From IMG/VR virus record IMGVR_UViG_3300021431_000092, positions 1 through 64,000 of that record: 64,000 nt of DNA; one strand, given 5' to 3'. This document shows, in pieces, positions 27,699 to 44,672 of this stretch. The DNA comes from a virus. Its lineage: Duplodnaviria > Caudoviricetes. How positions within the stretch are numbered: the first letter of the stretch is position 1; every line of letters starts with the position of its first letter. Under the pieces are notes generated by a model, which worked only from the letters and a program-made list of their open reading frames with translations, was not told where the DNA came from and made no database searches. Made by a program: the position numbers and the translations under genes.

Positions 27699-28307
27699 AT
27701 GGCTGAGATCAATGTTTTATCAATTAGCAGCAAACTTAAAAATTATGCTAATTCTACTGTCGGGAAGAACGAAATGAAGGATACACTAAGGGCTTATAGG
27801 GATGCTGGAGTCGAGAAAACGAACGCTGGTAGTAGTATCCATACTATTGATGATATGCATGCGATTGCACTTGATTTAATCAGGCAGCTTAAGATAATGG
27901 CAAGACAGCTTGAGACAGGAGGAGTATTTCCTCAGAGTGTCGCAGATCATTTTGATTCACTTTCGGTATTATCTATCGAAGAACGTCCAGACGGAAGTTA
28001 TGTGGCCTATATTGCATTCGACGATGATCTCAGCAGGGATTCGTTGCTTTGTGTCAGAAGTAACCAGAGTGGATCTGGGCACGATGCTTGGGTTGACAGA
28101 ACTGGAAGCGGAGTAGATAATATTGTTGCATTGTTCGATAACGGCTATAGTGCAAAACAGGTTTTCGGTTTCTGGGAGAACGCAGGGATATTCACACCAA
28201 GCAGAGCGTCTCGCCCGCATCTTGGATTCATGCAGGCGGAACTTGATGACTTTAAGATTAAGTATGGAAATATTGTTAAAGAAGCAGAACTCATGTGGGG
28301 TTATTAA
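27699..28307 (+). CDS. Hypothetical tail-cluster protein
   Basis: 202 aa; GVDNIVALFDNGY..RPHLGFM. Confidence 0.65.
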   Translation: MAEINVLSISSKLKNYANSTVGKNEMKDTLRAYRDAGVEKTNAGSSIHTIDDMHAIALDLIRQLKIMARQLETGGVFPQSVADHFDSLSVLSIEERPDGSYVAYIAFDDDLSRDSLLCVRSNQSGSGHDAWVDRTGSGVDNIVALFDNGYSAKQVFGFWENAGIFTPSRASRPHLGFMQAELDDFKIKYGNIVKEAELMWGY

Positions 28308-28321
28308 GAAAGGGGGATATT

Positions 28322-31300
28322 ATGGCACATCAGAGTCCCGATATTAGATTGTTATTTGGTGTTCTTGGCGACGGAGCTGTTGACGGAGCTAGCGGTAAGC
28401 TTATATCGGAGTGTTTACAGCAGATAGCAAATAATCTTGAACCTATTAAGGTTAAAGTTTCTATAGACGAAAATACATTGTCTGATTTTAAGGCGAGACT
28501 TGAATCGATCAGAATAATTACATTTGATATTGCAAATAATCTGAGTAAAAATGGTGTAAAACTTGACGCTAATACGAAGGGGGCAACTGTAGGAGAGGAA
28601 GAAGTATCGTTTCTTAAGGACGATATTACTAAGATGCTTTCTGCGCTTAAACAGATAGAGAGTATCAGACACACTCTTACAGAAACAATGAGAAGCGCCA
28701 CCCCGTTTTCCGGAGATAGCACGGTTGGTGAATATACAAGACAGATAGATAGTATGGTATTTGCTCTTGATAAACTCAGAACGTCCGTTATGATTGATGA
28801 TCTTACGTTTGAAAAATTTGACATGATGATTAAATCTATCGGATGGGATATGCAGGAGACAAAGAATCATCTTAATGAATATATAAGCAGTGCAAAAGAA
28901 GCTTCTGTTTCTTTTGACGTTGACGGTATGACAAAGGCGCTTACTTCGATTGAGAGTCTCTCTCATACATTGCATAACGCAAAGATATCATCCTTTCCGT
29001 TTGGAGAAGTTGGGGAAAATGATAAAGTAGTCTCTGGGTTTGTTATTGAGATTGATAAGTTGAATAAAAGTCTTGATGTTTTACGGGAACGAGTTCGTGA
29101 TGGATCTATTTCGACTTCTGAATTCAAGTCTGAAATGGCAAGAATTAATCTTGAAACAAAGCAAGTGACAAACAGCTTAAGTGAGTATATTAGGGCGTCG
29201 AAACAAACAGATGCATCTTTTGATGAAAGCAAGATATGGCCATCGCTCGACAAGATCGAATCTATAAGGCACGGACTTGAGACTATTAAGATTTCTACCG
29301 CACAATTCAAGGACGACTCTGGTGTACAGAAATATACGGCAGATATTAACGCCTTGAACGAACGCATGACCGATCTCTTACAGCGATTGCTCGACGGTAA
29401 TGTCACAACAAGAGACTTTCAGCTTACTCTTGCGGAGATTGGTAGTGAAGCGAAGAGGACAAAGAATGAGTTGAGCGAGTATGTCGCGGTGCTAAAGCAG
29501 ACATCTACAAGCTATGTTAGAGATGATTCAGCAACATTCGCAGCATCTCTCACCCAAATAGAAACGCTAAGACACACATTAACAAATACGTTGTCGAAAA
29601 CTGTTGGGCTGACAGACGATTCAACTATAGCCGGTTATGAATCTGATATAAACAGACTTATCGGAACTTTAGAGGAATTGAAGAATCACATTACAGTCGA
29701 CAATGTGACAACCGAGCAGTTTAGAACTGTTATTAAAAATGTGGGACTTCAGACAAAAGAGACCAAGAATCGCCTCGAAGAGTACATTCTGGCTAAAAAG
29801 AGAGATGCTGAGTCGAACACGCTTATATTGAAAGACACAAAAGAATATACAGATGCATCTAAACAGATGTCTGATGCAATGAAGAAAATAGTCGATGCTC
29901 AAAAGATGTATAAAGATTCTTTTATGAGCGCGACGAGATCTTCGGATCTTAATGCGCTTAGGCAATACAAACGAGAGATTGACCAGTTATATATTAGTCT
30001 ACAAAACGGTACATTGAGTCAGGAAGAATTTGCAAGTACAATGAAGGCGATATCGTCCAGTGTAGACTCTACGGTTGGATCTCTGTCGACGTATCAGACA
30101 TTTACAGAGAAGCTAAGTTCTCAGATCGGCTCTCTCACTAAAACATTCCTTACTTTCTACACGACACATAGAATACTTATGACCGGAATAAGAGTCATTA
30201 GGGATCTTATCAATCAGTCGATCGAGCTTGAGTCTGCATTTGCTGACGTCAGAATAGTTACTCATGCAACTAATGACGAGCTTGAGAGATATTCAAGAGA
30301 TATTGCTCAGGCGGCGCAAGAGACGAGCACACCGATCGCAGACCTTGTGAGTGCGGCGACCACGTTCTCACGTCTTGGCTATAATCTTGATGAGTCTGCA
30401 ACGCTTGCAAAGTTTACGGGTATGCTTGAGAAGGTCGGTAATGTTGATACGCAGCAAGCGGAAGACGCTGTTACTGCGATTATGAAAGCATTCCCTAAAG
30501 AGGCAGATGTCAATAGCATCGAAAGCATAATGGATAAATTGGTTACAACTGGTAACAATTTCCCAATTTCCGTCCAGCAGATTGCAGAGGGCATGACGAA
30601 CGCATCGTCCGCTATGGCTGCTGCCGGTAACACTTTCGATCAAACGGTTGCTCTTTTGACTGCGGCTAATGCTACCGTTCAGAACGCCTCTAAGTCTTCG
30701 ACAGCACTTCGCACGATTTCCGCTAGAATCAGAAAGACAAAGACTGAACTTGATGATCTTGGAGAGTCGATGACTGAATCGACGTATGACGAGCTCGTTA
30801 GCGCTCTTACTCAGCATCATGTTGCTCTCACGACAATTAATGGGGAGTTTAGATCTACATATGACATTATGAAGGATATCGCCACTCAATGGGACGATAT
30901 GACAAGTATGGAGCAGGCGGCTATTGCAGAGGCTATTGCAGGCACAAGACAACAGACTGTTTTCTACTCTATTGTTGAAAACTTCAAGGAAGCATCCGGC
31001 GCGATGGATTCTATGGCTACGAGTGCTGGAGCGCTATCTGAATCATATGACATTTATTTAGGGACGACACAGGCACATATCCAGCAGTTCCATACGGCGT
31101 GGCAAACTCTTGCAAGAGATGCGGTTGATAGCGACACGACGAAACTTTTTGTTGACACCGGTACTGCACTTCTTAAGGTAGCAGACGGGTTGCAAAGAGT
31201 TCACATGTTAATCCCGACAATTGTATCTGGTTTTAACACGATCAAGGCGATTCAATTCGCAAGAACAATTGCTTCGTCTCAGAAAGCCGTAACTCAGTTT

Positions 31301-34300
31301 GTAACATCTCTTACGGCTCAGCAAACAATCACAAAGAGTCTGGAGCAGGAGTATCTGGCACTTACAGCCGTTGAGCAGAGAGAAACGCTCGCACAACTTT
31401 CCTCTGCCGCTGCTGCCGGAGACGCGGCCGCGCAGCACGCCCTAGAAGCAATGTCTGTTGCGGGTCTTACTACGGCAGAAGAGGTTGCGACCGTTGCAAC
31501 GAACGGGCTCACAGTATCGATCAAAGGTCTCCTTTCGTCTAATCCTCTTGGCTGGATTATGCTTGCGGTGTCTGGTCTTATCATGCTTATTCAGAATATT
31601 AAGGATGCGCAGACTGAAGTTGAGACTTCAGAAGAAACGCTGAGTAGAGTGCATGATGAAATGTCTAAACTTGTATCGGACGCAAATAACGTAGCAAATA
31701 GTTATAGGGATCTGAAGAAGAATGCTGATGATATTATTCCAAGATTTACGGAGCTTGCAAGTGGCGTAGATAACCTTAGAGGGAATGTCAGTTTAACAGA
31801 TGATGAATACGAGGAGTTCTTGGATCTTAATAATCAGATAGCAGATATGCTTCCTAACATTAAAGCAGGATTTGACAATAATGGAGATGCAATCCTTAAT
31901 CTGTCGTATAATGCGGAGGATCTGTCTGATTCACTATGGGAGGCCGTAGAAGCACAGAGGGAACTTGCGAATATTAGCATAGCTGAAAATATGGGCGAGG
32001 CCATTAAGCTTGCGACTGATTCTAGTAATGCATATAAGCAACAGGAAAAAGATGCAATGGAATCTCTTGCTTATATGATAAAGCTTCAAGAATCAATTAA
32101 AAGCGGGTCTGCGTCGTTCGATTTTGACGACGGTCAGTATAAGAGGTTCATCGAGAAAATCAGTAAATTTGCTCCTGACATAGAGAGTTTCGACAAGAGC
32201 ATGCGCGATGTCTTCGGAAATTATATGCAAGGCCTTCAGTCTGGCTATATCAATCATATGAACGAAGAAGAGGTAGCGAGGGAGTTTGATAAGCTAGAGA
32301 ATAGCTTTGACTCTGTTATTAAGAGAATTCAGGCAGAACTCCATAATGTTAGACAGCAATCTGATAACGACAGTAATTGGGATTTCGTATCTCAGACGGC
32401 AATGGCATATGTGCAGACACAGCTTGCATATTTAAGATCCGACGATACAATACAGAAGGCCATTGACGAAATAGTATCTGGCATTAATTTCTCAGAAATC
32501 GGAGCAGAGACCTCTGGCGATGTTACTGCATACCTGACTGATAATGTTTTAAGCCCTATCGAAAGCATGGGCAAGGAAGCAAAAGATATACTATCATCTA
32601 CGCTTAATATTAAGAATCTCTTTTATTCTGGTTCTTCGAGTGTCTCCATGATGACAACGGCTATAAACGAACTTAATGATGGTCTTCATAAGGCCGGTGT
32701 AGAATCAAACACAATAAAAACAATTATGTCTCTGTTTGGATTTGACAGCATCACGACTAAACTCGACGACATCCGTAGGCTTCTTATTGACGACACAGAC
32801 GAGGCCGAAGAATTTCTTCTCACTCTTACCGGACAAGATATAGAACTTGTGTACAAAATTCTTAATGAAAATGGAAGCATGAGTTTCGAAGATCTGAAGT
32901 TAGCTCTTGATGAGATGAAGAAGTCCGTAAGTGAAATTGGTGAAGAGATTGACGAGTCATTTGTTATCCCAGATGATTTCTCAGAATTTTTCGACAATAT
33001 TGGTAAGGCAACTAAGAAAATTGACTCTATTACATCTGCGATGGAAAAGCTTCAGAAGGGTACAAATTTGACAACAAAAGAACTTATCAATATGGCAGAA
33101 CAGTACCCAGAACTTCTTCGACAGGCCAACTTGTTTACAGATAAAAGTGCAGAGGGTAGAAAAAGGCTCTTAAATGTGATGCTCGAAGCGTCCCGTAAGG
33201 AATATGAGGATCAGATTAATAAAAAGGTAGCAGAACTTAACCTTGACCTCGAAGCTGTAAAGAAACAGATTGAGCTTGAAAAGAGTAAGCAGAAGTTACG
33301 AATGGAGATATATACAAAATATATTGCCGGAGAAATTGATCTTACTACAAAGGGTGTCAGGCAGGTTCAATATCTTCAGGCGCTTGCTAGCCAAGATTAC
33401 GCTCGTCTAAAAGAGGGCGAAGTCGAGGTCAACAGAGGAGCTCTTAAGAGATCTAACGAAAACACATATGGTCTCTTACAGACTGCTGTTGAAAGAATCT
33501 GGAGCCCATACGCAACTGATGTCGGTCAGTTGTATATAGCGATGGGTCGAGCCGGAATCCAGTCAACAGGAGAATATGTGTCGGCTACAAATCAGATGCT
33601 CCAAGCGCTCGGATGGAATATGACGCAATCAATTTATAACAACATTACCGATCCGAATGTAAGAAGTGCCATTGAAAGCGCGGCTATATCTGCATATGCG
33701 AATCTAAACGACATATCTGTCATTGACTGGATGAATAATTATAACTCTGTTTATAATCAAAACAGTGTTATACTCCGTAATTTTTCAGGATCGCTTTCAG
33801 ATCTAACAAGCGGATATTCGTCTGTTGGTGACTGGTATACTCAATCTTCCATTGACTCAGGAAGGATAATTGAAGATCTTGAAAGAGAAGCCGATTACAT
33901 TAAGAATCAGATTAATAATCTGAACGGTATGAAGGATTCTATCGACCAAGATATTAGTGACATCGAAAAGATCCAGAATAAATCTGAAAGCGAATTGAAC
34001 AATAAATCGAACAATAACGCCAGCGATCCAACAAACAATAAAAAAGAATCGAATCCTCTTCTGGACGAATTCAATGCGTGGTATAAACTTCAGAAACACC
34101 TTCAGGAGATGGGAGACCCAAGTTTTGATATCGCAAGATTTATTGCCGAGCTTGAGGCGAGAGTCAACAGTCTTAAAGCAAAGCAGGCAATGACCGCAGA
34201 GGACGCTTATAAGTACGAGGAAGAAATCGCGAAGGCCGCAAAGAAGTTTGAAGACGATGCAAAAGACGCTCTCGACAATGTTGTTAAGTATAGAATGAAG

Positions 34301-35293
34301 ATCATCGAAGAACAACGTAAGAAGGAACGAGACATCCTCAATGACAGACTTGAAGAGCTTCGTAAGTTCTATGATGAGCAAAAAAAGATGCTCAGAGAAC
34401 AATATGAAGAAGAACAATATTTGAAAGAGCAGTCGGAAAAGAGAAAGGCAGCTTCTGATATTCAAACTCAAATTGACCAACTTAGAAGCGATAACTCTGC
34501 TTGGGCTCTTAAGAAGATCGAAGAACTTAAGGTTAAGTTGAGAGATGCGAATGAAGACCTTGATGAATTTGAGAGAGAGCACGCTCTTGATGAGACGGAA
34601 AAATTCTTAGACGATGAGTATGAGAGTCAGGCAAAAGAAATACAGGACGCCATAGACAAAATCGATAAGACATTAAACGACCCTAAGGCGATTTACAATA
34701 TTGCGCTTGCTGAAATTAAGAGCAACTCTTCGGATATTTATGACGAGATGCGTGAGTACGGAGAGAAGAACGGTGACGGCATCACAAATGAGGCTGCGGA
34801 GCTTATTAAAGAGCTTGCAGACGCCATTAGGGATTACGAGAATTATCAACATGATCGTATGCTCATAGTCAACGGAAAAGACACTTCGTATGGCGGGTAC
34901 GACGGTATGTCTCCACCAAAAGGATACGCATCTGGTACGAAGAATGCAATTCCGGGTCTTCACCTTGTCAATGAATTTGGCGACGAGGCGATATTCAAAT
35001 CTTCCAACGGCAACAAATACAGAATGTTTTCTGGTGGAGAAAAGGTATTAAATGCGAGGGCAACAGACTTCTTGTATGCGTTTGCGGACGCTGGTAGCAA
35101 GTTGTCTGGCTCTGATATGGCCGGTGCAAATACTGTTCGCGGAATTATAAACCCGTTTAGTACAGGCGCTATTCATATGGGCGATATCATCATAAATGGA
35201 AACGCAGATAATGCAACCGTTTCTGAGATAAGAAGAGCTCAGCGTGAGAGCATAAATATCTTGCTCAAGGAGTTTAGAAAACTCAAAATATAA
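28322..35293 (+). CDS. Tail tape measure protein (TP901-family core)
   Basis: About 2320 aa; core IELESAFADVRIV..ATTFSRLGY..GNNFPIS..STALRTISARI; NPLGWIMLAV hydrophobic segment; coiled coil; C-terminal GYASGT and IHMGDIIINGNAD. Confidence 0.92.
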   Translation: MAHQSPDIRLLFGVLGDGAVDGASGKLISECLQQIANNLEPIKVKVSIDENTLSDFKARLESIRIITFDIANNLSKNGVKLDANTKGATVGEEEVSFLKDDITKMLSALKQIESIRHTLTETMRSATPFSGDSTVGEYTRQIDSMVFALDKLRTSVMIDDLTFEKFDMMIKSIGWDMQETKNHLNEYISSAKEASVSFDVDGMTKALTSIESLSHTLHNAKISSFPFGEVGENDKVVSGFVIEIDKLNKSLDVLRERVRDGSISTSEFKSEMARINLETKQVTNSLSEYIRASKQTDASFDESKIWPSLDKIESIRHGLETIKISTAQFKDDSGVQKYTADINALNERMTDLLQRLLDGNVTTRDFQLTLAEIGSEAKRTKNELSEYVAVLKQTSTSYVRDDSATFAASLTQIETLRHTLTNTLSKTVGLTDDSTIAGYESDINRLIGTLEELKNHITVDNVTTEQFRTVIKNVGLQTKETKNRLEEYILAKKRDAESNTLILKDTKEYTDASKQMSDAMKKIVDAQKMYKDSFMSATRSSDLNALRQYKREIDQLYISLQNGTLSQEEFASTMKAISSSVDSTVGSLSTYQTFTEKLSSQIGSLTKTFLTFYTTHRILMTGIRVIRDLINQSIELESAFADVRIVTHATNDELERYSRDIAQAAQETSTPIADLVSAATTFSRLGYNLDESATLAKFTGMLEKVGNVDTQQAEDAVTAIMKAFPKEADVNSIESIMDKLVTTGNNFPISVQQIAEGMTNASSAMAAAGNTFDQTVALLTAANATVQNASKSSTALRTISARIRKTKTELDDLGESMTESTYDELVSALTQHHVALTTINGEFRSTYDIMKDIATQWDDMTSMEQAAIAEAIAGTRQQTVFYSIVENFKEASGAMDSMATSAGALSESYDIYLGTTQAHIQQFHTAWQTLARDAVDSDTTKLFVDTGTALLKVADGLQRVHMLIPTIVSGFNTIKAIQFARTIASSQKAVTQFVTSLTAQQTITKSLEQEYLALTAVEQRETLAQLSSAAAAGDAAAQHALEAMSVAGLTTAEEVATVATNGLTVSIKGLLSSNPLGWIMLAVSGLIMLIQNIKDAQTEVETSEETLSRVHDEMSKLVSDANNVANSYRDLKKNADDIIPRFTELASGVDNLRGNVSLTDDEYEEFLDLNNQIADMLPNIKAGFDNNGDAILNLSYNAEDLSDSLWEAVEAQRELANISIAENMGEAIKLATDSSNAYKQQEKDAMESLAYMIKLQESIKSGSASFDFDDGQYKRFIEKISKFAPDIESFDKSMRDVFGNYMQGLQSGYINHMNEEEVAREFDKLENSFDSVIKRIQAELHNVRQQSDNDSNWDFVSQTAMAYVQTQLAYLRSDDTIQKAIDEIVSGINFSEIGAETSGDVTAYLTDNVLSPIESMGKEAKDILSSTLNIKNLFYSGSSSVSMMTTAINELNDGLHKAGVESNTIKTIMSLFGFDSITTKLDDIRRLLIDDTDEAEEFLLTLTGQDIELVYKILNENGSMSFEDLKLALDEMKKSVSEIGEEIDESFVIPDDFSEFFDNIGKATKKIDSITSAMEKLQKGTNLTTKELINMAEQYPELLRQANLFTDKSAEGRKRLLNVMLEASRKEYEDQINKKVAELNLDLEAVKKQIELEKSKQKLRMEIYTKYIAGEIDLTTKGVRQVQYLQALASQDYARLKEGEVEVNRGALKRSNENTYGLLQTAVERIWSPYATDVGQLYIAMGRAGIQSTGEYVSATNQMLQALGWNMTQSIYNNITDPNVRSAIESAAISAYANLNDISVIDWMNNYNSVYNQNSVILRNFSGSLSDLTSGYSSVGDWYTQSSIDSGRIIEDLEREADYIKNQINNLNGMKDSIDQDISDIEKIQNKSESELNNKSNNNASDPTNNKKESNPLLDEFNAWYKLQKHLQEMGDPSFDIARFIAELEARVNSLKAKQAMTAEDAYKYEEEIAKAAKKFEDDAKDALDNVVKYRMKIIEEQRKKERDILNDRLEELRKFYDEQKKMLREQYEEEQYLKEQSEKRKAASDIQTQIDQLRSDNSAWALKKIEELKVKLRDANEDLDEFEREHALDETEKFLDDEYESQAKEIQDAIDKIDKTLNDPKAIYNIALAEIKSNSSDIYDEMREYGEKNGDGITNEAAELIKELADAIRDYENYQHDRMLIVNGKDTSYGGYDGMSPPKGYASGTKNAIPGLHLVNEFGDEAIFKSSNGNKYRMFSGGEKVLNARATDFLYAFADAGSKLSGSDMAGANTVRGIINPFSTGAIHMGDIIINGNADNATVSEIRRAQRESINILLKEFRKLKI

Positions 35294-35338: not shown

Positions 35339-36538
35339 ATGAATTTGTGCGAATGCCATTTTACATATAATAACACCGATTCTCGTAAGTATAACCTGAT
35401 AATTGCGAACATAGAAACAGAAATGTTCAGACCTATTGTTGGAGTGAAAAAGGGGAATTATTATTATAATAAAGCGAGCAAATCAAGATGCCTTATTGGC
35501 GACGACTATAGCGATACGTCTCTTGAGATCGAGATAGAGATAGTAACGTGTGATGCGTTGCCGCTCAAACAAAAGGAAATAAGAGAGGTTGAACGGTGGT
35601 TATTCACAAATAGTATTTTTAGAAAGCTGTATATTGACATGGATGACGATTATTTCGGCGAAATGTATGAACTTGTATACGGCGTTCAAAAAAGACTTTA
35701 TTTCAATTGCAGGTTTATGTCTCCGACAAAAATATATGGAAATGGCGGAATCATTGGGTTCAAATGTACATTAGAAACCGATAGCATGATGCTTTGGCAA
35801 GATCCTATCATCCATGCGTTTGACGTAAATAAGGATCCAATCACTATAAACGATGGTGGAGAGACTAGAAAAATACTTCTCGGAGATATTAATATGAACG
35901 GTCGTATTGAGGCAATCGACGCGCAGAACATCCTTACGGTATATTTGTATATAATGATGCATGAAGGAGAACCGGATTATGATCCGTGGGTAACACCAAG
36001 ATATGCGTTCGATCCGCCACTAAGTAAATATCAGTTGATAGCGTGTGATATGGATTATACATCCGAAGACTATGATAATGATACTCCGCCAAACGTACAG
36101 GCAAGCGACGCTCAAAGAGCATTGAGTTTATTCCTTTGCGACGTACTATCAGATCCGGTTCCAATGAGCACAATTATTATACTGGATGATGGTAGCATTG
36201 TGATTGTCGATGAGGGCACGAAGGTGATTGATATACCTGTCGATACGGATCTTGATGGGTATACATATCCTGAAATTACGCTCATCACAGGAAAGACTGG
36301 TGGAGATATAGAGATTACAAATCTCAATGATAACAGGGATAGGGTTACTAAATTTGTAAATATTCCACCGTATTCCAGAGTTGTTATTGATAGTTCTATA
36401 AGCAGGGTCTCGGATGGTCTTTATGAACAAATGACAAAGAAGAATTTTCCGAGACTGATATCTGGAGAAAATAAATTTGCAATCAACGGGGATGTAACAA
36501 CGATGAGTGTGTCGTGGCAAAATAGAAGATTCTTATGA
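35339..36538 (+). CDS. Distal tail protein (Dit) with an inserted dockerin-like domain
   Basis: Follows the tape measure gene; Dit-type FTYNNTDS..YNLII, REVERWL, YPEITL, NFPRLISGENKF; insert GDINMNGRIEAIDAQNIL...QLIACDMD...VQASDAQRAL. Confidence 0.82.
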   Translation: MNLCECHFTYNNTDSRKYNLIIANIETEMFRPIVGVKKGNYYYNKASKSRCLIGDDYSDTSLEIEIEIVTCDALPLKQKEIREVERWLFTNSIFRKLYIDMDDDYFGEMYELVYGVQKRLYFNCRFMSPTKIYGNGGIIGFKCTLETDSMMLWQDPIIHAFDVNKDPITINDGGETRKILLGDINMNGRIEAIDAQNILTVYLYIMMHEGEPDYDPWVTPRYAFDPPLSKYQLIACDMDYTSEDYDNDTPPNVQASDAQRALSLFLCDVLSDPVPMSTIIILDDGSIVIVDEGTKVIDIPVDTDLDGYTYPEITLITGKTGGDIEITNLNDNRDRVTKFVNIPPYSRVVIDSSISRVSDGLYEQMTKKNFPRLISGENKFAINGDVTTMSVSWQNRRFL

Positions 36539-38265: not shown

Positions 38266-38820
38266 GTGTGTGTTTTGGCTAAGTACACTTTATATGATAA
38301 GAATGGAGATTTACTTGAGCGTCTTTATCAGTGGGATTTAGACAGGGTTGTGGCAGTGTCAAATGTAACTGCATGGAGTGGCGCGACTGTATTTATCCAG
38401 TTTGGAAACAGAAAGGTAGACGAAACTATTATAGTAGAACCTACATTGTCAGATGGTAAATACATTGCGAACATCCCGAACTCTCTTTTATCCTATGCCG
38501 AAAATCTTAATGTGTATATTTCTCAAAGAACACAATCGGGAGAAACGCTCGTCATTGATGAGATCAGAATTCCTGTTGTGCCGAAGAATATGCCAAGTGA
38601 TTATATTTATGTCCCGAATACAGAGGATATCTCAGTTCCCAATGGTCTTATTCTTGACGGGGAAATGTTGTATCTTTCTCGTAACGGCAGAAGAATTGGC
38701 GATGGGGTTTCGATTTCCGGTGGAGAGTCTGGCGGAATAGGCATTGGCTCTGCAATCTTGGTGGCAGCAGGAAGCGGTAACCATGACACGGGAGTAATTT
38801 CAAGTTGGGAGAGTGTTTAA
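38266..38820 (+). CDS. Putative upper baseplate (BppU-like) protein
   Basis: LYQWDLDR..ANIPNSLL..IPVVPKNMPSDY pattern; position. Confidence 0.55.
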   Translation: MCVLAKYTLYDKNGDLLERLYQWDLDRVVAVSNVTAWSGATVFIQFGNRKVDETIIVEPTLSDGKYIANIPNSLLSYAENLNVYISQRTQSGETLVIDEIRIPVVPKNMPSDYIYVPNTEDISVPNGLILDGEMLYLSRNGRRIGDGVSISGGESGGIGIGSAILVAAGSGNHDTGVISSWESV

Positions 38821-39463
38821 CATGGCAATCACAAAAACATTTATCGGTATGGATTTCGATTTGTGGAAAGCGTTTCTGGATGACTCCGGTATGTTTTCAT
38901 CGGTCGCAAAAGTTGATTCAGGCGGGGTTGTAACTCTAACATGCAATGACGAAAACGGTAACGCCGTTCTGACTATCTCAAAAACTGCTGCTGCAACTGT
39001 GGCTTTCAAAGCACGCACAACAGGCGGGCACGAAGTAACGCCGGCATCGTATACCCTATCTGCTAACTATGATACTAATTACGGATATAAGTGCGCGAAC
39101 GGAATTATGATCGGGATGAAGTCAAACAATGCCGAATTGTTTTCTGTTCTCATTGTTCGAAATAACAGCGGCGCATTGACGTTCGTCCTGCCCAATTCAA
39201 CTGCAAGCAGAACTTCTTTTTACTGTGTGACATACGAAGACACTTATCCGGTTCATTCATATGTAATCGGTAATAATAATTCAAACCAAACACAGATCGT
39301 TTCGTTCGTTACAAATGCGCCTGCTGGAACGATATCTTATACGCCGGATGCGTTCTATATTCCGTTTAGAGAGTATGCGGGAGGAGGTTATGCTAAGTTT
39401 ACAATGAACGGCAAGATGTATATGACAGACGGGTATTGGGCTGTAAGAGATTCGGATACATAA
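38813..39463 (+). CDS. Hypothetical tail/baseplate protein
   Basis: Beta-rich 216-aa ORF in the tail module. Confidence 0.6.
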   Translation: MFNMAITKTFIGMDFDLWKAFLDDSGMFSSVAKVDSGGVVTLTCNDENGNAVLTISKTAAATVAFKARTTGGHEVTPASYTLSANYDTNYGYKCANGIMIGMKSNNAELFSVLIVRNNSGALTFVLPNSTASRTSFYCVTYEDTYPVHSYVIGNNNSNQTQIVSFVTNAPAGTISYTPDAFYIPFREYAGGGYAKFTMNGKMYMTDGYWAVRDSDT

Positions 39464-39488
39464 CAACTAATGGGATGGAGTTGATATC

Positions 39489-39683
39489 ATGGCTGTAACA
39501 ATTAATGATTATGGCAACGTGGCTAACAAGCCTACGGCTGTTTTGTACGGGCTGTCAACAGATACTAAGCCTGTAAGAGAAATAAACGATACGCCGATTG
39601 TAAACGGAAGTGTTTTTATTGAGATGGACACCGGAGACGCTTTCTTTTATGACGAAGAGAATGAGCTTTGGAAGGAAGTTTGA
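39489..39683 (+). CDS. Small hypothetical tail-module protein
   Basis: GGAG RBS; GLSTDTKP..NGSVFIEMDTG..FFYDEENELW. Confidence 0.7.
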   Translation: MAVTINDYGNVANKPTAVLYGLSTDTKPVREINDTPIVNGSVFIEMDTGDAFFYDEENELWKEV

Positions 39684-39694
39684 GGTGAGTATAT

Positions 39695-40717
39695 ATGGAT
39701 GCAGCAACATATGTACTGTGTAGAGGATATGTTAAAAAGACCGCAGAGGCGTTGGGCGCTGTAAAAGGCGCCCCATGCACTATTAAGTCCATAGTCGATG
39801 GTAACGGCGGGCACACCGTAACATTCGAATGGGTTGGTGACAATGATGTTAAACAGACAACAACAATGTTTGTAAAAGATGGGACAGACGGTGTTTCTGT
39901 TGTTGGCGTAACAGTTGATGCAAACAATCATATCATTTGCACTATGTCTGATGGTACAACGATTGACGCTGGTGGTATCTCTGTTTCTGCTGAGACAACG
40001 TCTCCGATTACAACGACAACTTCTGTTGGTGGAATAAAAAGTGACACAACGTATCCTGCCGGAACCGGTATCGAAGATATTATAACTGATATGCTTGTTG
40101 AATATAAAATGCCAACGGTATCTATCAGTCTCGACCCGGGCAGGCTTGTATACGACGTTGTAAATGAAAGCATCTCTGAAATAACGATTACTGGTAACGT
40201 GGTAAAGGGCACAAAAGATATTGTTGAAGTTGTTTTCAGAGTCAATGGTGTAGTTTGGGAGACCGTAACGAATAATGTTAAAGATGGTGGCACGTTTAGT
40301 TATACGTGGGTTCCATCCTCTCCTGTTAATACAACGACATCGTTCTCTGTGTCAGCTTTTGACGGCGATAAGGTTGCTGTTGCACCGTCGCAGATTAACT
40401 TTTATGCAAAAAGTTATTATGGCGTTGTGAGTAGCGATGTTGCGTCTCCGGACGAGGCTCATATTAAAGAACTTTACGGCATCCTGAAGTCTACAAAAGA
40501 ATATGCCGCAAGTCCTATATCCGCTGCTTATGCTAGAATCGTATATGCATACCCGAAAAGCTTCGGAACTATTTCAAGTATTATAGACACATCTTACGGT
40601 CTTAACTACGAGGATAGTTTTACTTTGACAGAAGTAAAAGTAGATAACATCGACTACTATGTCTACACACAGACAGATCCGTCGTCAATCGAAAACATAA
40701 AACTTAGATTCGCGTAA
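39695..40717 (+). CDS. Putative tail fibre / structural protein
   Basis: 340 aa; DGTDGVSVVGVTVDANNHIICTMSDGTTIDAG segment followed by an Ig-like beta region. Confidence 0.6.
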   Translation: MDAATYVLCRGYVKKTAEALGAVKGAPCTIKSIVDGNGGHTVTFEWVGDNDVKQTTTMFVKDGTDGVSVVGVTVDANNHIICTMSDGTTIDAGGISVSAETTSPITTTTSVGGIKSDTTYPAGTGIEDIITDMLVEYKMPTVSISLDPGRLVYDVVNESISEITITGNVVKGTKDIVEVVFRVNGVVWETVTNNVKDGGTFSYTWVPSSPVNTTTSFSVSAFDGDKVAVAPSQINFYAKSYYGVVSSDVASPDEAHIKELYGILKSTKEYAASPISAAYARIVYAYPKSFGTISSIIDTSYGLNYEDSFTLTEVKVDNIDYYVYTQTDPSSIENIKLRFA

Positions 40718-40736
40718 GAAAGGAGAGTGAGTATGT

Positions 40737-42515
40737 ATGTCAATTAACATTTTGGATTCTTTTAATTATAAAGGAAGACGCCCTGATTTTGTGAGACAAC
40801 AGTTCGGAACCATAGAGGCAATGAGAACATTCTCTGAAAACTACCTTCCTGATATGTATCTGTGTTACTGCCTTGAAGACGGAAAGGTATACCTGTACAA
40901 CAAGGATAATGCAGTCGATCAAACAACTGGTCGGTGGAGACAGCTTGAGTCTGGTGGCGGCGGCGGAGATATGACAAATTATTACACCAAGACAGAGACA
41001 AACACGCTGCTCAACGGTAAACAGGACGTACTTGAGTACGACAGTGTGCCTACGTTTGGAAGCACTAAGGTTATGACGTCTAATGCTATTGCAACTGCTC
41101 TTACTGGTAAACAGGATGCGCTGACGGTTGACAGTACGCCTACTAGCGGAAGTAGTAACCCAGTTACATCTGGCGGCGTATATACCGCTCTTAGCGGTAA
41201 GCAGGCAACCCTGACATTCGATAGCGCTCCGACCGCAAACAGCGATAACCCTGTCAAATCAAATGGCATCAAGTCGTATGTTGATACTGCTGAAACAAAT
41301 GCAAAAGCTGATTGGTTCTTAAGAGGCCCGATGATTGCAAGAGATACAGACTTTAATACACTTACAACTCAGGGACATTACTATGTTAATTCTAATGATT
41401 CCGCAAGTACCATGACAAATATACCAGTACCTTACGGCGGAAGACTTGAAATTACAACAATTATCGGTGATACAGCTTACCTTAGACAAACTTACTATGC
41501 GAATACAGACAGAACAGGTCTTATTTGCATCAGAAGACAGAAGACCTCTACATCTGGTTGGTCTGACTGGGTAATATTATCAACTCATGAAGAGTGTGGC
41601 GCAATCGCAAACTTAGGCGCAAAGAATTTAAGTAGAGCGACATTTACATCTAATGATAACATTTATGGCATCGCTGTTACTGCTAATGCTGATGGCACTG
41701 TTACAGCAAATGGAACTGCTACTGCTCCTGCGATTTTACAGAGTTCAACTTTTACACTTAAAGCAGGAACATATATTTTTAGCTGTTCAGAAAACCCACA
41801 AAGAGACTCTACTTATGATGCTTATGTTTATAACGTAGACGCTTCTACAACTATTGCCAGAGACAATCCTAATGATAGCCCCGGAACAACATTTACATTG
41901 GCACAAGATACTACTGTTCGTATCAATTTAAGAGTTGCAAATGGTTATACTGCAAATAATGTTGTATTTAAGCCTATGATTATGGATGCCGCAATTGTTG
42001 ATGCGACTTATCAACCGCCTACTCCAACTAACGCAGAACTTAATGATAGCAAAATTACAATGCTTAACATTCTTGGCGCTGGAACACGTATTACAGCAAC
42101 ATCTGAGGCTCCTCTTAACTTTGATGACGCACCTTTTACTACTGTTGGTCGTTTCAACTGGTTAAGTGCTTCTGCCGCTTATATTACAAATTGTCCTTCA
42201 TACATTAATGGAGAAGCAAAGGGTGGTTCGCTTGAGGTCTCTTATGTACAAGGCCCGGCTAGTGTTCTTCAAACTGTTTATCCTTCTGCGGGTGCTGATA
42301 GCCCTAGCATTTTCTGGCGGCGTTTCCGCTACGGTGGAGGAACAACATCAAATCCTTACAGATGGACAAACTGGTTTGCTTTCGCTGGAACAGAAGTTGT
42401 GCCGCCTAACGCACAAACAACAAATCTTGTTGGTGAAATGAGAAGCGTTGCACCAAGCCTTGAAGAGTCTGATGTTGAAAATCCTGTTGAACTTCAAGAA
42501 GACGAAATGAGATAA
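40737..42515 (+). CDS. Tail fibre / receptor-binding protein with 30-aa repeats and two pyocin-knob-like domains
   Basis: KQD.L..DS.PT.GS..P..S repeat x3; DFNTLTTQGHYYV..QTYY..WSDW and a second knob ..QTVY..WTNW. Confidence 0.75.
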   Translation: MSINILDSFNYKGRRPDFVRQQFGTIEAMRTFSENYLPDMYLCYCLEDGKVYLYNKDNAVDQTTGRWRQLESGGGGGDMTNYYTKTETNTLLNGKQDVLEYDSVPTFGSTKVMTSNAIATALTGKQDALTVDSTPTSGSSNPVTSGGVYTALSGKQATLTFDSAPTANSDNPVKSNGIKSYVDTAETNAKADWFLRGPMIARDTDFNTLTTQGHYYVNSNDSASTMTNIPVPYGGRLEITTIIGDTAYLRQTYYANTDRTGLICIRRQKTSTSGWSDWVILSTHEECGAIANLGAKNLSRATFTSNDNIYGIAVTANADGTVTANGTATAPAILQSSTFTLKAGTYIFSCSENPQRDSTYDAYVYNVDASTTIARDNPNDSPGTTFTLAQDTTVRINLRVANGYTANNVVFKPMIMDAAIVDATYQPPTPTNAELNDSKITMLNILGAGTRITATSEAPLNFDDAPFTTVGRFNWLSASAAYITNCPSYINGEAKGGSLEVSYVQGPASVLQTVYPSAGADSPSIFWRRFRYGGGTTSNPYRWTNWFAFAGTEVVPPNAQTTNLVGEMRSVAPSLEESDVENPVELQEDEMR

Positions 42516-43102: not shown

Positions 43103-43137
43103 AAAAGTGCCCGATTTAATAGTCGGGCACTTTTTTT
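43103..43137 (+). terminator. Intrinsic terminator between the holins and the endolysin
   Basis: AAAAGTGCCCGATT/AGTCGGGCACTTTT stem with a T7 run. Confidence 0.8.
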
Positions 43138-43154
43138 ATGAAAGGATGAATGTT

Positions 43155-44672
43155 ATGTCTGATTATTCACGTATGATTGACGTGTCTGCGCATCAGGCTA
43201 ATATAGATTGGGGCGCTGTAAAGAATAGCGGCTCTGTTGATGCTGTTATTATGAGATGCGGAATTAGCACAAGAAAGAACGGAAATCTTGTACTTAATAA
43301 GGATAGTTGTTTTGATAAGAATTATAGAGGGGCAAAAGAAAACTTTATTCCTGTCGGAGTGTATTACTATTCACATGCGCTCAATACTAATGAAGCTGTA
43401 AAAGAGGCTGAATTTGTAATTGACATTTTGAAAAACGGACACTATGAATTTCCAGTGTATTATGACGTAGAAGAGAAAGAACAGCTCGGACTCGGAAAGA
43501 CTGTCGTTTCAAACATTGTTCGCGCATTCTTATCCAAAGTCGAATCGGCCGGATATTGGGTTGGCATCTATGGTTCAAGGTACCCTCTCGTGGATTATAT
43601 TGACGAAGATATAAGAAATAGATATGCAGTATGGGTTGCGCATATCGGAGTGCAGAAAACTTCTTATCCCGGCGCGTATGGCATGTGGCAGTATAGTTGG
43701 ACTGGAAGAATCTCCGGCATCAATGGAGACGTTGATCTGGATCGTTGTTATGTAGATTATCCGAGCAAGATTAGATCTAAGGGACTGAATGGATTCACAG
43801 CGACCACACCAGCCTCTCAGGGAGAGCATAGGCAGAATTATACTAATCCATATTCTATCCCAACGAGAACCTTGAGAAAGGGAGATAGCGGAGATGATGT
43901 TAGATGGATGCAGAATAGCCTTATTTATCTTGGTTATAATTGTGGTAATTCTGGAGCTGACGGAAGTTTTGGGAATAATACAGATAGGGCGCTGAGGGCG
44001 TTTCAGTCTAATATGGGTCTTTCTGTCGATGGTGTGTGCGGCCCCGCAACAAGAGCCGCTATTATAAGCGCTACTGGTCAGTCTCAGCGGGAAGTAAAGC
44101 ACAATACATTTACTCAGAGACTTACACGTCCAGAAGCTGGAAATAAGTTCTTTATCACTAGATCGGCAGGCGGATGGAGCACAGCAATTATTGGCAAGCC
44201 TACTGATAGCAAATGTAATGTCCTGTCTAATTGTGTGGGATATGCGTTCGGCAGATTCAATGAGATTTTGTATCAGACTCTTGATGCTAATAGTATTAGT
44301 AAGCTCTTTAAGGATAACGGTGGTAGTCTCGTAGATCTTCATCTTAATAAGGATATGCCGTTGCTTGCGCCTAGAAACGCTGAGAACTTCTATGACGTTG
44401 CTATCCAGCAGGGGCTTACTGTTTCTCAGACACCAAAGGTCGGCGCTATTATGTGCTGGCAGAAGGGCGCTACTAGGACAAGTTCAGATGGCGCAGGGCA
44501 TGTCGCTGTTGTTGAAAGAGTTGTTTCGTCGACAGAGGTCGTCACAAGTGAATCTGGATATAACTGCTCCAACCCGTTCTGGACTCAAAACAGAAAGAAG
44601 AGTGGCGGTAATTGGGGTCAGTCAAGCGCATATAGATTTCTTGGCTTCATTCTAAATCCTGCCGTAAAATAA
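43155..44672 (+). CDS. Endolysin: GH25 muramidase + PG_binding_1 + CHAP
   Basis: IDVSAHQ, YYDVE, WQYS..GDVDLD; LRKGDSGDDVRWMQ..DGSFG..DGVCGPAT; NCVGYA..GHVAVVE..SES. Confidence 0.9.
   Translation: MSDYSRMIDVSAHQANIDWGAVKNSGSVDAVIMRCGISTRKNGNLVLNKDSCFDKNYRGAKENFIPVGVYYYSHALNTNEAVKEAEFVIDILKNGHYEFPVYYDVEEKEQLGLGKTVVSNIVRAFLSKVESAGYWVGIYGSRYPLVDYIDEDIRNRYAVWVAHIGVQKTSYPGAYGMWQYSWTGRISGINGDVDLDRCYVDYPSKIRSKGLNGFTATTPASQGEHRQNYTNPYSIPTRTLRKGDSGDDVRWMQNSLIYLGYNCGNSGADGSFGNNTDRALRAFQSNMGLSVDGVCGPATRAAIISATGQSQREVKHNTFTQRLTRPEAGNKFFITRSAGGWSTAIIGKPTDSKCNVLSNCVGYAFGRFNEILYQTLDANSISKLFKDNGGSLVDLHLNKDMPLLAPRNAENFYDVAIQQGLTVSQTPKVGAIMCWQKGATRTSSDGAGHVAVVERVVSSTEVVTSESGYNCSNPFWTQNRKKSGGNWGQSSAYRFLGFILNPAVK

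What the first reader, a model, noticed from the sequence alone, without database searches (positions are those of the whole stretch)
35830..36225. Dockerin-like module inserted in the phage distal tail protein: possible adsorption to cellulosome cohesins
Seen: the Dit gene has a roughly 130-aa insertion with a duplicated F-hand pattern. Repeat 1 is LLGDINMNGRIEAIDAQNILTVYL (35876 onward), then a linker, LSKYQLIAC, and repeat 2 DMD(YTSEDYDNDTPP)NVQASDAQRALSLFL. Known: G-D-x-N-x-[DN]-G-x-[IV]-x-x-x-D-A repeated after an 'LS..Q..A.D' linker is the dockerin signature of cellulosomal Clostridia and Ruminococcus. 'Evolved' Dit proteins normally carry carbohydrate-binding inserts, and Dit is a hexamer at the baseplate. 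Inference: the virion displays six dockerins and binds cohesins of a cell-anchored scaffoldin as receptor or co-receptor, or rides on cellulosomes on plant fibre. I am not aware of this strategy having been described.
Basis: partly seen in the sequence, partly recalled or inferred. Interest (0 to 1): 0.95.

Follow-up and report, generated by a model that had tools for sequence, protein, structure and literature searches.

The report
Dockerin plug in phage tail hub
A roughly 100-kb uncultured phage from cattle and goat guts carries, inside the ring protein at its tail tip, a diverged copy of the calcium-binding "dockerin" plug that Ruminococcus-type bacteria use to clip proteins onto cell-surface "cohesin" sockets. 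The phage may therefore attach to its host through those sockets, but binding and host are both untested.

Summary
ORF 35339-36538 (399 aa) follows a 2332-aa tape measure protein and is a distal tail protein (Dit). Pfam finds DUF6558 N and C domains, and Foldseek's top hits are the Dits of 80alpha, SPP1 and p2.

About 130 aa (residues 163-296) are absent from 39 short homologues and fold as a dockerin. The top 13 structural hits are all dockerins. The best is the R. flavefaciens ScaH dockerin 8AJY (Z 8.7), which binds the wall-anchored ScaE cohesin.

The window's own insert misses the Pfam cut-off (14 vs 22.9 bits). It still finds true dockerins by phmmer (E 1e-9).

Forty-two Dit clusters carry the insert. 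On the core tree this fits one gain. Half are canonical dockerins, 39-58% identical to dockerins of cohesin-bearing genomes in one Ruminococcus-type family. The window belongs to a derived clade with an expanded second calcium loop.

Cohesin binding, exposure on the hexamer and the host are not shown. The one complex prediction gave no answer.

I found no paper describing this. This scan had already noted dockerins on phage tail parts in other genomes, including one Dit of a Ruminococcus prophage (e1-2911994).

Verdict: a real and unusual evolved Dit. Cohesin-mediated adsorption is plausible (about 0.45).

The parts
28295..35293 (+). Tape measure protein (2332 aa), immediately upstream of the Dit gene
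   Evidence: ORF list. Its length and its position before the Dit and Tal genes identify it.
35339..36538 (+). Distal tail protein (Dit), 399 aa, with an internal dockerin module
   Evidence: Pfam DUF6558 N (residues 7-149, 30.3 bits) and DUF6558_C (299-387, 27.0 bits), both above cut-off. The full-length AlphaFold model has pLDDT 83.4. Foldseek's top hits are 80alpha Dit 6v8i (E 5.7e-8), SPP1 Dit 2x8k and p2 Dit 2wzp.
35339..35824 (+). Dit N-terminal ring domain (residues 1-162)
   Evidence: Aligns with both short and long homologues. Pfam DUF6558.
35825..36226 (+). Insertion (residues 163-296) that short Dits lack: predicted beta-strand stalk plus dockerin
   Evidence: Gap in 39 short homologues. 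Insert-only model has pLDDT 88.5, with strands at 168-172, 175-179, 275-281 and 287-295 flanking five helices.
35876..36142 (+). Dockerin-fold module proper (residues 180-268)
   Evidence: VIA-align: 8ajy_D Z 8.7, rmsd 2.5 A, 71 aa, 27% identity; ranks 1-13 are all dockerins. Foldseek top hit 8ajy_B, probability 0.99. ESM Atlas structural neighbours are mostly dockerin proteins (6 of 10 rows named or annotated as dockerin, TM 0.51-0.62).
35885..35920 (+). Calcium loop 1, canonical 12 residues (D183-x-N-x-N-G-x-I-x-x-x-D194)
   Evidence: D183, G188 and D194 are invariant in 40 insert-bearing homologues. This is the Pfam Dockerin_1 partial match and the stretch that most phmmer dockerin hits align to.
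36047..36109 (+). Calcium loop 2, expanded to 21 residues (D237-M-D-Y-TSEDYDNDTP-P-N-V-Q-A-S-D257)
   Evidence: Alignment with canonical relatives (ADMDxDGxIxxxD) places about 9-10 extra residues after loop position 4. C236 and D237 are invariant, and Y240, D244, Y245 and P251 are conserved in the 19 type-B sequences.
36227..36535 (+). Dit C-terminal (galectin-type, peripheral) domain, residues 297-399
   Evidence: Pfam DUF6558_C. It aligns with the short homologues. The peripheral position is taken from solved Dits (PMC7291167).
36535..38256 (+). Tal-position minor tail protein (573 aa)
   Evidence: phrog_6211 minor tail protein, E 3.4e-35. Overlaps the Dit stop by 4 nt.
38266..42515 (+). Five further tail-tip ORFs (184, 216, 64, 340 and 592 aa), candidate receptor-binding proteins
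   Evidence: ORF list. No Pfam or PHROG family. No likeness to a cohesin profile for the four ORFs compared (184, 216, 340 and 592 aa; the 64-aa ORF was not compared). The 216-aa ORF has only viral look-alikes.
43107..44672 (+). Endolysin (GH25 + PG_binding_1 + CHAP); marks the end of the tail module and points to a Gram-positive host
   Evidence: Pfam.

Best explanation
The gene encodes the distal tail protein of a roughly 100-kb siphovirus-type phage of ruminant guts. This protein forms the hexameric ring at the tail tip.

An ancestor of this Dit lineage acquired a dockerin from a Ruminococcus-type cohesin-dockerin system. The dockerin sits between the ring domain and the peripheral C-terminal domain, at the same general place where other 'evolved Dits' carry carbohydrate-binding modules. 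The module has been kept while the Dit core diverged to about 45% identity. In the window's clade its second calcium loop was enlarged.

The most likely mechanism is as follows. Six dockerins project from the baseplate on short beta-strand stalks. In the presence of calcium they plug into cohesin modules on the host surface, such as sortase-anchored ScaE-type cohesins or free cohesins of scaffoldins. This gives multivalent first attachment, which the downstream receptor-binding proteins then complete.

Shown here: Dit identity, dockerin homology and fold, insertion site, distribution, and likeness to the dockerins of one Ruminococcus-type family.

Inferred: exposure on the virion, calcium binding, cohesin binding, a role in adsorption, and the host.
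For: - Dit identity: position after the tape measure gene, Pfam and fold.
- Dockerin homology and fold.
- Closest solved relative: the group-4 ScaH dockerin 8AJY, which binds the cell-wall-anchored ScaE cohesin (PMC5301203 and PMC12270676).
- Canonical dockerins in relatives: 13 of the 40 aligned insert-bearing homologues carry a Pfam Dockerin_1 hit. Examples are P0013 at 39.9 bits and P0020 at 35.9 bits.
- History: on a tree of the Dit core with insert columns removed, insert-bearing forms are one side of a branch (SH-aLRT 96) and the expanded type is one clade (98). Only two changes are needed, which implies long retention.
- Residue pattern: calcium-ligand positions are invariant or nearly so (D183, G188, D194, D237, D257). 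Positions 10/11 and 18 after each loop are the most variable, the pattern expected for a working dockerin with changing partners.
- Likeness to bacterial dockerins: the phage dockerin profile hits dockerins in 31 of 401 genomes of the family that holds the MAG titled 'Ruminococcus sp. UMGS40', up to 41 bits. In 391 genomes of a Lachnospiraceae-labelled family it reaches only 24 bits.
- Canonical phage dockerins are 39-58% identical to those bacterial dockerins.
- The four best-matching genomes hold 2-12 cohesin matches, including an R. flavefaciens ScaC-like adaptor and an SPKTG-anchored single cohesin.
- Short Dits without the insert exist in the same family, so the insert is an accessory and not needed for ring assembly.
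- Known evolved Dits use inserted modules at the ring periphery as host-binding anti-receptors (PMC7291167).
- Between near-identical strains the insert changes 3.4 times faster than the core (25/402 vs 15/795 nt, p 2e-4).
Against: - No binding has been measured or convincingly modelled.
- The host is unknown. No relative of the insert-bearing Dit was found in 185,579 species genomes or in isolated phages. The presence of cohesins in the true host is therefore untested.
- The window's own module fails the Pfam threshold. Its second repeat is interrupted, and it lacks the Gly-Arg dyad of group-4 dockerins (A-I and A-S at those positions).
- The expanded type has no bacterial counterpart matching across both repeats, so it may have left classical cohesin recognition behind.
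- The faster change of the insert disappears at greater divergence (P0002: odds ratio 1.4, p 0.21).
- Many dockerins outside cellulosomes have no known cohesin partner (my own knowledge).
- Exposure on the hexamer was not modelled.
Confidence: 0.45

Rival explanations
1. The dockerin fold has been re-purposed as a scaffold. In the window's clade the enlarged and highly variable second loop would be the binding site for some other host surface molecule, either a protein or a polysaccharide. Alternatively the module acts only as a calcium-dependent structural or trigger element of the baseplate. In neither case is a cohesin involved.
For: - Loop 2 varies from about 16 to about 120 residues within the type-B clade. 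P0039 has a roughly 100-aa insertion there, and P0059 carries two such modules in tandem plus an extra domain.
- No bacterial dockerin matching across both repeats was found among 1.84 billion representatives or in 401 genomes.
- The window's module is below the Pfam threshold.
- Calcium-triggered baseplate activation is known in phage p2 (PDB 4v5i title; PMC7291167).
Against: - Repeat 1 and both helices that form the cohesin-contact faces are intact and conserved in pattern.
- The sister clade keeps fully canonical dockerins up to 58% identical to bacterial ones.
- R. flavefaciens XDoc dockerins with large insertions (4IU2) still bind the ScaE cohesin, and they align over 88 residues with this model (PMC5301203).
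Confidence: 0.25
2. The dockerin is an assembly plug. It would bind a cohesin-like domain on another phage protein, such as a receptor-binding protein or fibre, and hold it on the Dit ring, as the 'arm and hand' insertion of the phage p2 Dit holds its receptor-binding proteins.
For: - The insertion lies at the junction where the p2 Dit carries its RBP-anchoring arm (PMC7291167).
- Five tail-tip ORFs downstream have no assigned family.
Against: - No cohesin (PF00963) match anywhere in the 101.7-kb record.
- No likeness between Tal or four downstream ORFs and a cohesin profile (probability under 1%). These were single-sequence comparisons and so a weak test.
- The Atlas structural neighbours of the 216-aa ORF are not cohesins.
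- Closely related Dits work without the insert.
Confidence: 0.12
3. The dockerin does bind cohesins, but mainly those of cellulosomes on plant fibre or on non-host cells. This would keep virions in the fibre-attached biofilm where hosts live (retention), and the cohesin would not serve as the entry receptor.
For: - The evidence for cohesin binding is the same as for the main explanation.
- Free and fibre-bound scaffoldins carry many unoccupied or exchangeable cohesins (my own knowledge).
- The phage has separate candidate receptor-binding proteins downstream.
Against: - Nothing here separates this reading from adsorption to the host.
- The closest solved relative binds a wall-anchored cohesin, not an enzyme-integrating one.
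- The Dit sits at the very tail tip, next to the channel, where evolved-Dit modules are known to bind the host itself (PMC7291167).
Confidence: 0.1

Closest known systems
Evolved distal tail proteins (evoDit) of Lactobacillus, Lactococcus and Streptococcus siphophages (e.g. phage J-1; review PMC7291167)
   Same: A classical Dit (ring domain plus peripheral C-terminal domain) with an extra adhesion-type module inserted at the periphery. It is present in some members of a phage group and absent from close relatives.
   Different: The inserted module is a protein-protein interaction module (dockerin), not a BppA-type carbohydrate-binding module. It sits at the junction of the two domains on a predicted beta stalk. 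The expected ligand is a protein socket, not a cell-wall polysaccharide.
R. flavefaciens group-4 dockerins, ScaH dockerin in complex with the ScaE cohesin (PDB 8AJY; PMC5301203, PMC12270676)
   Same: Best sequence match (E 9e-6 with the family profile) and best structural match (Z 8.7, 27% identity). Shares the two F-hand repeats and a 'DA' pair after each loop. Canonical sister phage modules share the linker pattern and an A-R/A-K pair where ScaH has G-R.
   Different: The window's module has A-I and A-S at the Gly-Arg positions, a longer linker and a 21-residue second loop. It is internal to a virion protein with no signal peptide, whereas the bacterial dockerin is C-terminal on a secreted protein.
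XDoc dockerins of R. flavefaciens CttA and ScaB (PDB 4IU2/4IU3, 4WKZ)
   Same: These dockerins have large insertions yet still bind the anchored ScaE or ScaG cohesin. They give the longest structural alignment with this model (88 residues, Z 6.0).
   Different: Their insertions buttress an upstream X module, which is absent here. The insertion positions were not shown to correspond.
Phage p2 Dit 'arm and hand' insertion (PDB 2WZP/4V5I)
   Same: An insertion right after the start of the Dit C-terminal domain. The p2 baseplate also responds to calcium.
   Different: The p2 arm is an extended loop that anchors the phage's own RBPs. It is not an autonomous folded domain borrowed from the host.
Earlier notes of this scan on other DNA: dockerin on the Dit of a Ruminococcus prophage (e1-2911994) and dockerins inside jumbo-phage tail fibres of ruminant guts (e1-5689170, e1-5843861, e1-5929705, e1-5690025, e1-5843854)
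   Same: The same idea: a Ruminococcus-type dockerin on a phage tail part, with 8AJY as the nearest solved structure and no binding data.
   Different: There is no sequence likeness to this Dit by shared words. Here the module is internal to a DUF6558-type Dit of a roughly 100-kb SPbeta-like phage and belongs to a derived expanded subtype. Those notes are unchecked AI notes, not publications.

Membership tests
Siphovirus distal tail protein (Dit) | Gene lies directly after the tape measure gene and before the Tal gene | tested here: met
   TMP 28295-35293, Dit 35339-36538, Tal-position phrog_6211 36535-38256.
Siphovirus distal tail protein (Dit) | Dit fold (N-terminal ring domain plus peripheral C-terminal domain) | tested here: met
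   Foldseek hits with probability 1.00 to the Dits of 80alpha, SPP1, p2, Douge and NF5 (E 5.7e-8 to 7e-5). Pfam DUF6558 N and C are above cut-off.
Siphovirus distal tail protein (Dit) | Forms a hexameric ring in the virion | not testable with these tools
   At most 4 copies or 1000 residues could be modelled. No virion data exist.
Dockerin (Pfam PF00404 Dockerin_1) | Score above the Pfam gathering threshold | tested here: not met
   Window insert: 14.0 bits, E 0.061, cut-off 22.9, loop 1 only. The threshold is met by 13 of the 40 aligned insert-bearing homologues, for example P0013 at 39.9 bits. The window's module is therefore filed as a diverged homologue, not as a Pfam-recognised member.
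Dockerin (Pfam PF00404 Dockerin_1) | Significant sequence homology to bona fide dockerins | tested here: met
   phmmer of the insert alone: best E 1.1e-9, and 8 of 10 checked hits carry Dockerin_1. The family profile against the PDB gives the ScaH dockerin at E 9e-6.
Dockerin (Pfam PF00404 Dockerin_1) | Dockerin fold: two loop-helix F-hand motifs packed with a connecting helix | tested here: met
   Model pLDDT is 94-98 in the core. VIA-align ranks 1-13 are all dockerins (Z 8.7-3.9), followed by unrelated chains at Z 3.8 or below.
Dockerin (Pfam PF00404 Dockerin_1) | Two 12-residue calcium-binding loops with D/N at positions 1, 3, 5, 9 and 12 | tested here: inconclusive
   Loop 1 is canonical (D183, N185, N187, G188, D194). 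Loop 2 keeps positions 1, 3 and 12 (D237, D239, D257) but has about 9-10 extra acidic residues and P in place of G6. Calcium binding itself was not testable.
Dockerin (Pfam PF00404 Dockerin_1) | Binds a cognate cohesin | not testable with these tools
   Needs ITC, ELISA or a cohesin microarray with candidate cohesins. The host is unknown.
R. flavefaciens group-4 (type III, ScaE-binding) dockerins | Symmetrical repeats with a Gly-Arg dyad at the cohesin-recognition positions 11/12 of both repeats (PMC5301203) | tested here: not met
   The window has A192-I193 and A255-S256. The repeats are asymmetrical because of the expanded loop 2. Canonical sister modules have A-R or A-K. This group is the nearest solved relative, not the module's own group.
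Evolved Dit (evoDit) | An extra folded module inserted in an otherwise classical Dit and absent from close relatives | tested here: met
   39 short and 42 long (window plus 41) homologues. The insert covers residues 163-296.
Evolved Dit (evoDit) | The inserted module is a carbohydrate-binding module (BppA-like) in a loop of the galectin domain | tested here: not met
   The module is a dockerin fold at the domain junction. This makes it a new variant of the evoDit idea, not a member of the CBM-bearing set.
Evolved Dit (evoDit) | The module binds the host cell | not testable with these tools
   Needs labelled protein and a host.

The most novel reading that the evidence does not exclude
A lineage of rumen phages has taken over the host's own cohesin-dockerin plug-and-socket system as an adsorption device. 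Six virion-borne dockerins at the tail tip would plug into wall-anchored or scaffoldin cohesins. In the window's clade the dockerin would have become a phage-specific scaffold whose second loop can be enlarged, from 16 to about 120 residues, to retune binding. This would be a protein-protein receptor strategy not described for any phage, and a natural source of new orthogonal cohesin-dockerin-type pairs.
Probability: 0.4. Interest if true: 0.85.

Novelty: new variant of a known kind. Interest (0 to 1): 0.72.

Why it matters
Phages of fibre-degrading rumen and gut Clostridia are almost unstudied, and their receptors are unknown. If the tail-tip dockerin binds host cohesins, three things follow.
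- The cellulosome or amylosome anchoring system would also be a phage entry point. That would be a cost of displaying cohesins, could shape the well-known diversification of cohesin-dockerin specificities, and would link phage predation to fibre digestion in ruminants.
- It would extend the 'evolved Dit' concept from sugar-binding to protein-socket-binding modules.
- It would give a direct handle for finding hosts of uncultured phages, using the labelled dockerin as bait.

The claim can be tested directly with a 134-residue recombinant domain and existing cohesin libraries.

Tried and rejected
- Complex prediction: the window dockerin (residues 170-280, with alignment) plus the SPKTG-anchored cohesin of genome G207 (P0125 residues 44-176, with alignment) and two Ca scored 0.00. 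The verdict was 'no answer', so it counts neither for nor against binding. That cohesin was a stand-in from a genome not shown to be the host.
- Host search:
  - The Dit alignment found no relative in 185,579 species genomes by pattern scan.
  - It found none in 50,697 isolated phage records.
  - It found only short forms in IMG/VR and one short form in JGI metagenome contigs.
I could not fetch the contigs of the 41 insert-bearing homologues to compare their neighbouring genes.
- NrdD as a host marker: matches of 62-83% identity fall on MAG contigs labelled Faecalibacterium, Clostridia, Eubacteriales, Congzhengia, Erysipelothrix, Cyanobacteria, Gastranaerophilales, Bacteroidales and others. 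Two near-identical 95-kb contigs sit in MAGs of different phyla. I read these as related phage contigs binned into MAGs, so they are unusable for host assignment.
- Portal: the best match is 62% identity at the end of a 75-kb contig in G026. That genome shows no cohesin match and no Dit relative. Binning is weak evidence either way.
- The 'family of G010' search repeated the same genome sample as 'family of G011' and added nothing.
- Search for a phage-encoded cohesin: none by Pfam in the whole record. hhalign of Tal and four downstream ORFs against a cohesin alignment found none. The Atlas search of the 216-aa ORF found none. These are weak tests and do not exclude a diverged cohesin fold.
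- Type-B profile against 401 genomes: only three weak hits (23 bits or less). I do not treat G207 as the host.
- Sequencing runs with a share below 0.5 that I did not lay are not used as evidence of habitat. Only X2 (bovine gut) and X11 (goat gut) are used, because each covers the whole gene in one contig.
- No tRNA genes in the window.
Full report
**What is there**

The finding lies in ORF 35339-36538 (+ strand, 399 aa). It starts 46 nt after the stop of a 2332-aa ORF (28295-35293) and overlaps by 4 nt a 573-aa ORF that matches phrog_6211 'minor tail protein'. This is the tape measure-Dit-Tal order of siphovirus-type tails.

Pfam finds DUF6558 (phage tail protein N-terminal domain, residues 7-149, 30.3 bits) and DUF6558_C (299-387, 27.0 bits), both above their cut-offs. 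An AlphaFold2 model built on 40 homologues (pLDDT 83.4) gives solved Dits as its best Foldseek matches: 80alpha 6v8i (E 5.7e-8), SPP1 2x8k, p2 2wzp, and the monocin, Douge and NF5 baseplates. The gene is a Dit.

The record is an IMG/VR virus contig of 101,737 bp with GC 42.4%, estimated 86% complete. It carries an integrase, a GH25-PG_binding_1-CHAP endolysin, NrdD, a Pol III alpha-type polymerase and a portal (phrog_2739).

A search of 5.8 billion proteins returned 80 homologues in two length classes: 39 of 267-303 aa and 41 of 372-682 aa. In alignments the long forms, including the window, have an extra block between the two Dit domains. In the window this block is residues 163-296 (35825-36226).

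Pfam Dockerin_1 on the window's own insert is below threshold (14.0 bits, E 0.061 against a cut-off of 22.9) and covers only the first loop. Other tests are clear:
- phmmer with the 113-aa insert alone against 1.84 billion representatives gives 21 hits. Besides the Dit family, 8 of the 10 I checked carry Dockerin_1 at 55-120 bits, fused to LRR_5, GDSL lipase or Big_2 domains (best E 1.1e-9).
- The family profile finds the R. flavefaciens ScaH dockerin in the PDB at E 9e-6, and 8 of its 10 PDB hits are dockerins.
- An insert-only AlphaFold2 model (pLDDT 88.5 overall, 94-98 over the core) was aligned to 48,161 representative chains. Ranks 1-13 are all dockerins. The best is 8ajy_D (Z 8.7, rmsd 2.5 A, 71 residues, 27% identity), followed by 2ccl_B (7.0), 5n5p_D (6.9) and the CttA XDoc 4iu2_B (6.0 over 88 residues). 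The first unrelated chain scores Z 3.8.
- Foldseek agrees on 8ajy_B (probability 0.99, E 0.045).
- ESM Atlas structural neighbours of residues 168-282 are mostly dockerin proteins (6 of 10 rows named or annotated as dockerin, TM 0.51-0.62).

**Two subtypes and one origin**

Twenty-one long forms carry a textbook dockerin (GDVDFDGxxxxxDAQ, an 8-residue linker, LTExQ, ADMDxDGxIxxxDAQ). Thirteen of these have a Pfam Dockerin_1 hit on record, for example P0013 at 39.9 bits.

The window and 20 others form 'type B'. Loop 1 is canonical, the linker is longer, and loop 2 reads C-D-M-D-Y-T-x-E-D-Y-D-x-x-x-x-P before rejoining the canonical x-I-x-x-x-D-A-Q. Loop 2 is 21 residues in the window. It is about 100 residues longer in P0039, and P0059 has two such modules in tandem.

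I built a maximum-likelihood tree of the Dit core with the insert columns removed.
- Short forms and insert-bearing forms fall on opposite sides of one branch (SH-aLRT 96).
- Type B forms one clade (98).
- Two changes of state suffice, against a shuffled mean of 35.5.

If the root lies among the short forms, the dockerin was gained once, was kept while the core diverged to about 45% identity, and was later remodelled once.

Calcium-ligand positions are invariant or nearly so (D183, G188, D194, D237, D257). Positions 10/11 and 18 after each loop, which are the cohesin-contact positions of studied dockerins, are the most variable (entropy 2.4-3.1 bits).

**Where the module probably came from**

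Two runs each hold the whole gene, without indels, in one contig: a bovine-gut metagenome (5 differences) and a goat-gut metagenome (42 differences).

The nearest solved dockerin, ScaH of R. flavefaciens FD-1, is a group-4 dockerin. It binds the cohesin of ScaE, the sortase-anchored scaffoldin on the cell wall (PMC5301203, PMC12270676).

Through an NrdD locus I obtained a handle on a MAG titled 'uncultured Ruminococcus sp. UMGS40' (G011) and searched 401 genomes of its family with the Dit profile.
- Thirty-one genomes matched through the dockerin part, at up to 41 bits.
- One genome (G182) holds a short Dit in a tape measure-Dit-Tal row on a 593-kb contig, that is, an integrated prophage.
- Canonical phage dockerins are 39-58% identical to these bacterial dockerins (P0017 against a 437-aa protein of G274: 58% over 65 residues, E 7e-20). 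The window's type B reaches only 33% over 60 residues.

The four best-matching genomes hold 2-12 cohesin matches, and G182 holds none. A Coh-Doc adaptor of G274 is most like R. flavefaciens ScaC (5lxv, 62 bits). G207 has a 247-aa protein with a signal peptide, one cohesin, a Pro/Thr linker and an SPKTG sorting signal.

In a comparator family (391 genomes around a 'Lachnospiraceae bacterium' MAG) the best matches were short Dit prophages, and the dockerin part reached only 24 bits.

The Dit family is therefore widespread in prophages of Clostridia. Its dockerin resembles those of one cohesin-bearing, Ruminococcus-type family. This is evidence about the origin of the module. It is not proof of the host.

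**What it most likely does**

In solved Dits the C-terminal domains lie at the periphery of the hexameric ring and do not touch each other. Evolved Dits carry carbohydrate-binding modules there that bind the host. The p2 Dit has its RBP-holding arm right after the first strand of that domain (PMC7291167).

The insert here is at that junction. It is predicted to consist of four beta strands (168-172, 175-179, 275-281, 287-295) that would form a stalk, with the dockerin at its tip.

I therefore think the most likely mechanism is multivalent, calcium-dependent docking of the tail tip onto host-surface cohesins as a first attachment step. The five unassigned tail-tip ORFs downstream (38266-42515) would be the further receptor-binding proteins. 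I put this at about 0.45.

The main reservations are these:
- The host is unknown.
- Nothing shows binding or exposure.
- The window's subtype is remodelled. It has no bacterial counterpart matching across both repeats and lacks the Gly-Arg dyad of group-4 dockerins.

Between near-identical strains the insert accumulates changes 3.4 times faster than the core (25/402 against 15/795 nt, p 2e-4). Replacements occur at T200, S256, A261 and S263 on the helix faces. At 82% identity the excess is gone (odds ratio 1.4, p 0.21).

**Rivals**

- (a) The fold has been re-purposed, with the variable loop 2 as a new binding site or as a calcium trigger (0.25).
- (b) The dockerin holds a phage protein that has a cohesin-like domain (0.12). 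I found no cohesin in the record by Pfam, by profile comparison of Tal and four downstream ORFs, or in the Atlas neighbours of the 216-aa ORF. These tests are weak.
- (c) It binds cohesins of fibre-bound cellulosomes, for retention and not for entry (0.10).

**What failed**

The single complex prediction (window dockerin plus the G207 anchored cohesin) scored 0.00, which the tool defines as no answer. I therefore could not test co-variation with neighbouring genes in the 41 relatives. The host searches by Dit, NrdD and portal are described under Tried and rejected.

**Novelty**

Full-text searches for dockerin combined with phage tail terms, 'distal tail protein', rumen virome, bacteriophage/cohesin/receptor, and prophage/Ruminococcus found no description of a natural phage dockerin used for attachment. 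The nearest is a note on dockerin domains next to NosD-like genes on an ANME virus contig (PMC13452462). A 2026 survey of ruminococcal cellulosomes does not mention phages.

Within this scan the theme has come up before on other DNA. There is one note of a dockerin on the Dit of a Ruminococcus prophage (e1-2911994) and several of dockerins inside jumbo-phage tail fibres from ruminant guts. None of these shows sequence likeness to this Dit. They are unchecked AI notes. I used them as leads only, notably for the phage-encoded-cohesin rival.

I classify the finding as a new variant of a known kind: an evolved Dit whose accessory module is a protein-socket plug and not a sugar-binding module. Interest is 0.72.

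Noticed in passing
window 35298-35321: A perfect 9-bp stem with a 6-nt loop (GTGCTGCGG-TGAAAG-CCGCAGCAC) sits 5 nt after the tape measure stop codon and just before the Dit ribosome-binding site. No T-run follows it. It may be an RNA stability or attenuation element between the two tail genes.
   Followed up: no
window 1-60: The record begins with three tandem copies of the 20-mer TCTGGATGCACGTCCGGCGC. The far end of the 101.7-kb record also shows a short direct repeat (CCGGCGGAATCTCTTCC). These may be an assembly artefact or a terminal feature.
   Followed up: no
G000:C1:89816-89892 (- strand), outside the window: ARAGORN calls an odd tRNA with an unassignable two-letter anticodon '(at)'. It lies among four ordinary phage tRNAs (Met, Asn, Pro, Gln at 83.9-91.7 kb).
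   Followed up: no
proteins P0039 and P0059 (homologues): P0039 (486 aa) has a roughly 100-residue insertion inside the second dockerin loop. P0059 (682 aa) has two type-B dockerins in tandem with an extra module of about 150 aa between them. Loop 2 and the insertion site thus appear to be hot spots for growth.
   Followed up: partly
loci L046, L048, L049, L052, L053 (NrdD relatives): The tblastn match to the phage NrdD spans 2065-2475 nt in these loci, against 1746 nt in the others. This suggests an intein or intron inside nrdD of related phages.
   Followed up: no
loci L048 and L049: Near-identical 95.2-kb contigs carrying the NrdD relative are filed in MAGs labelled Lachnospiraceae and Paludibacteraceae. 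The same phage contig was probably binned into unrelated genomes, which is a warning against using MAG labels for host assignment.
   Followed up: partly
L092:1276-2016 (- strand), protein P0125, genome G207: This belongs to a small family of 219-236-aa proteins with a signal peptide, one cohesin, a Pro/Thr linker and an [SA]PKTG sorting signal. They are wall-anchored single-cohesin proteins with no PDB relative by sequence.
   Followed up: partly
G182:C5:431344-440572 (L099 7345-16573): An integrated prophage on a 593-kb contig has a TMP (1180 aa), a short Dit (287 aa), and ORFs of 783 and 798 aa. The host genome shows no cohesin match. It is a dockerin-less relative of the window's Dit.
   Followed up: partly
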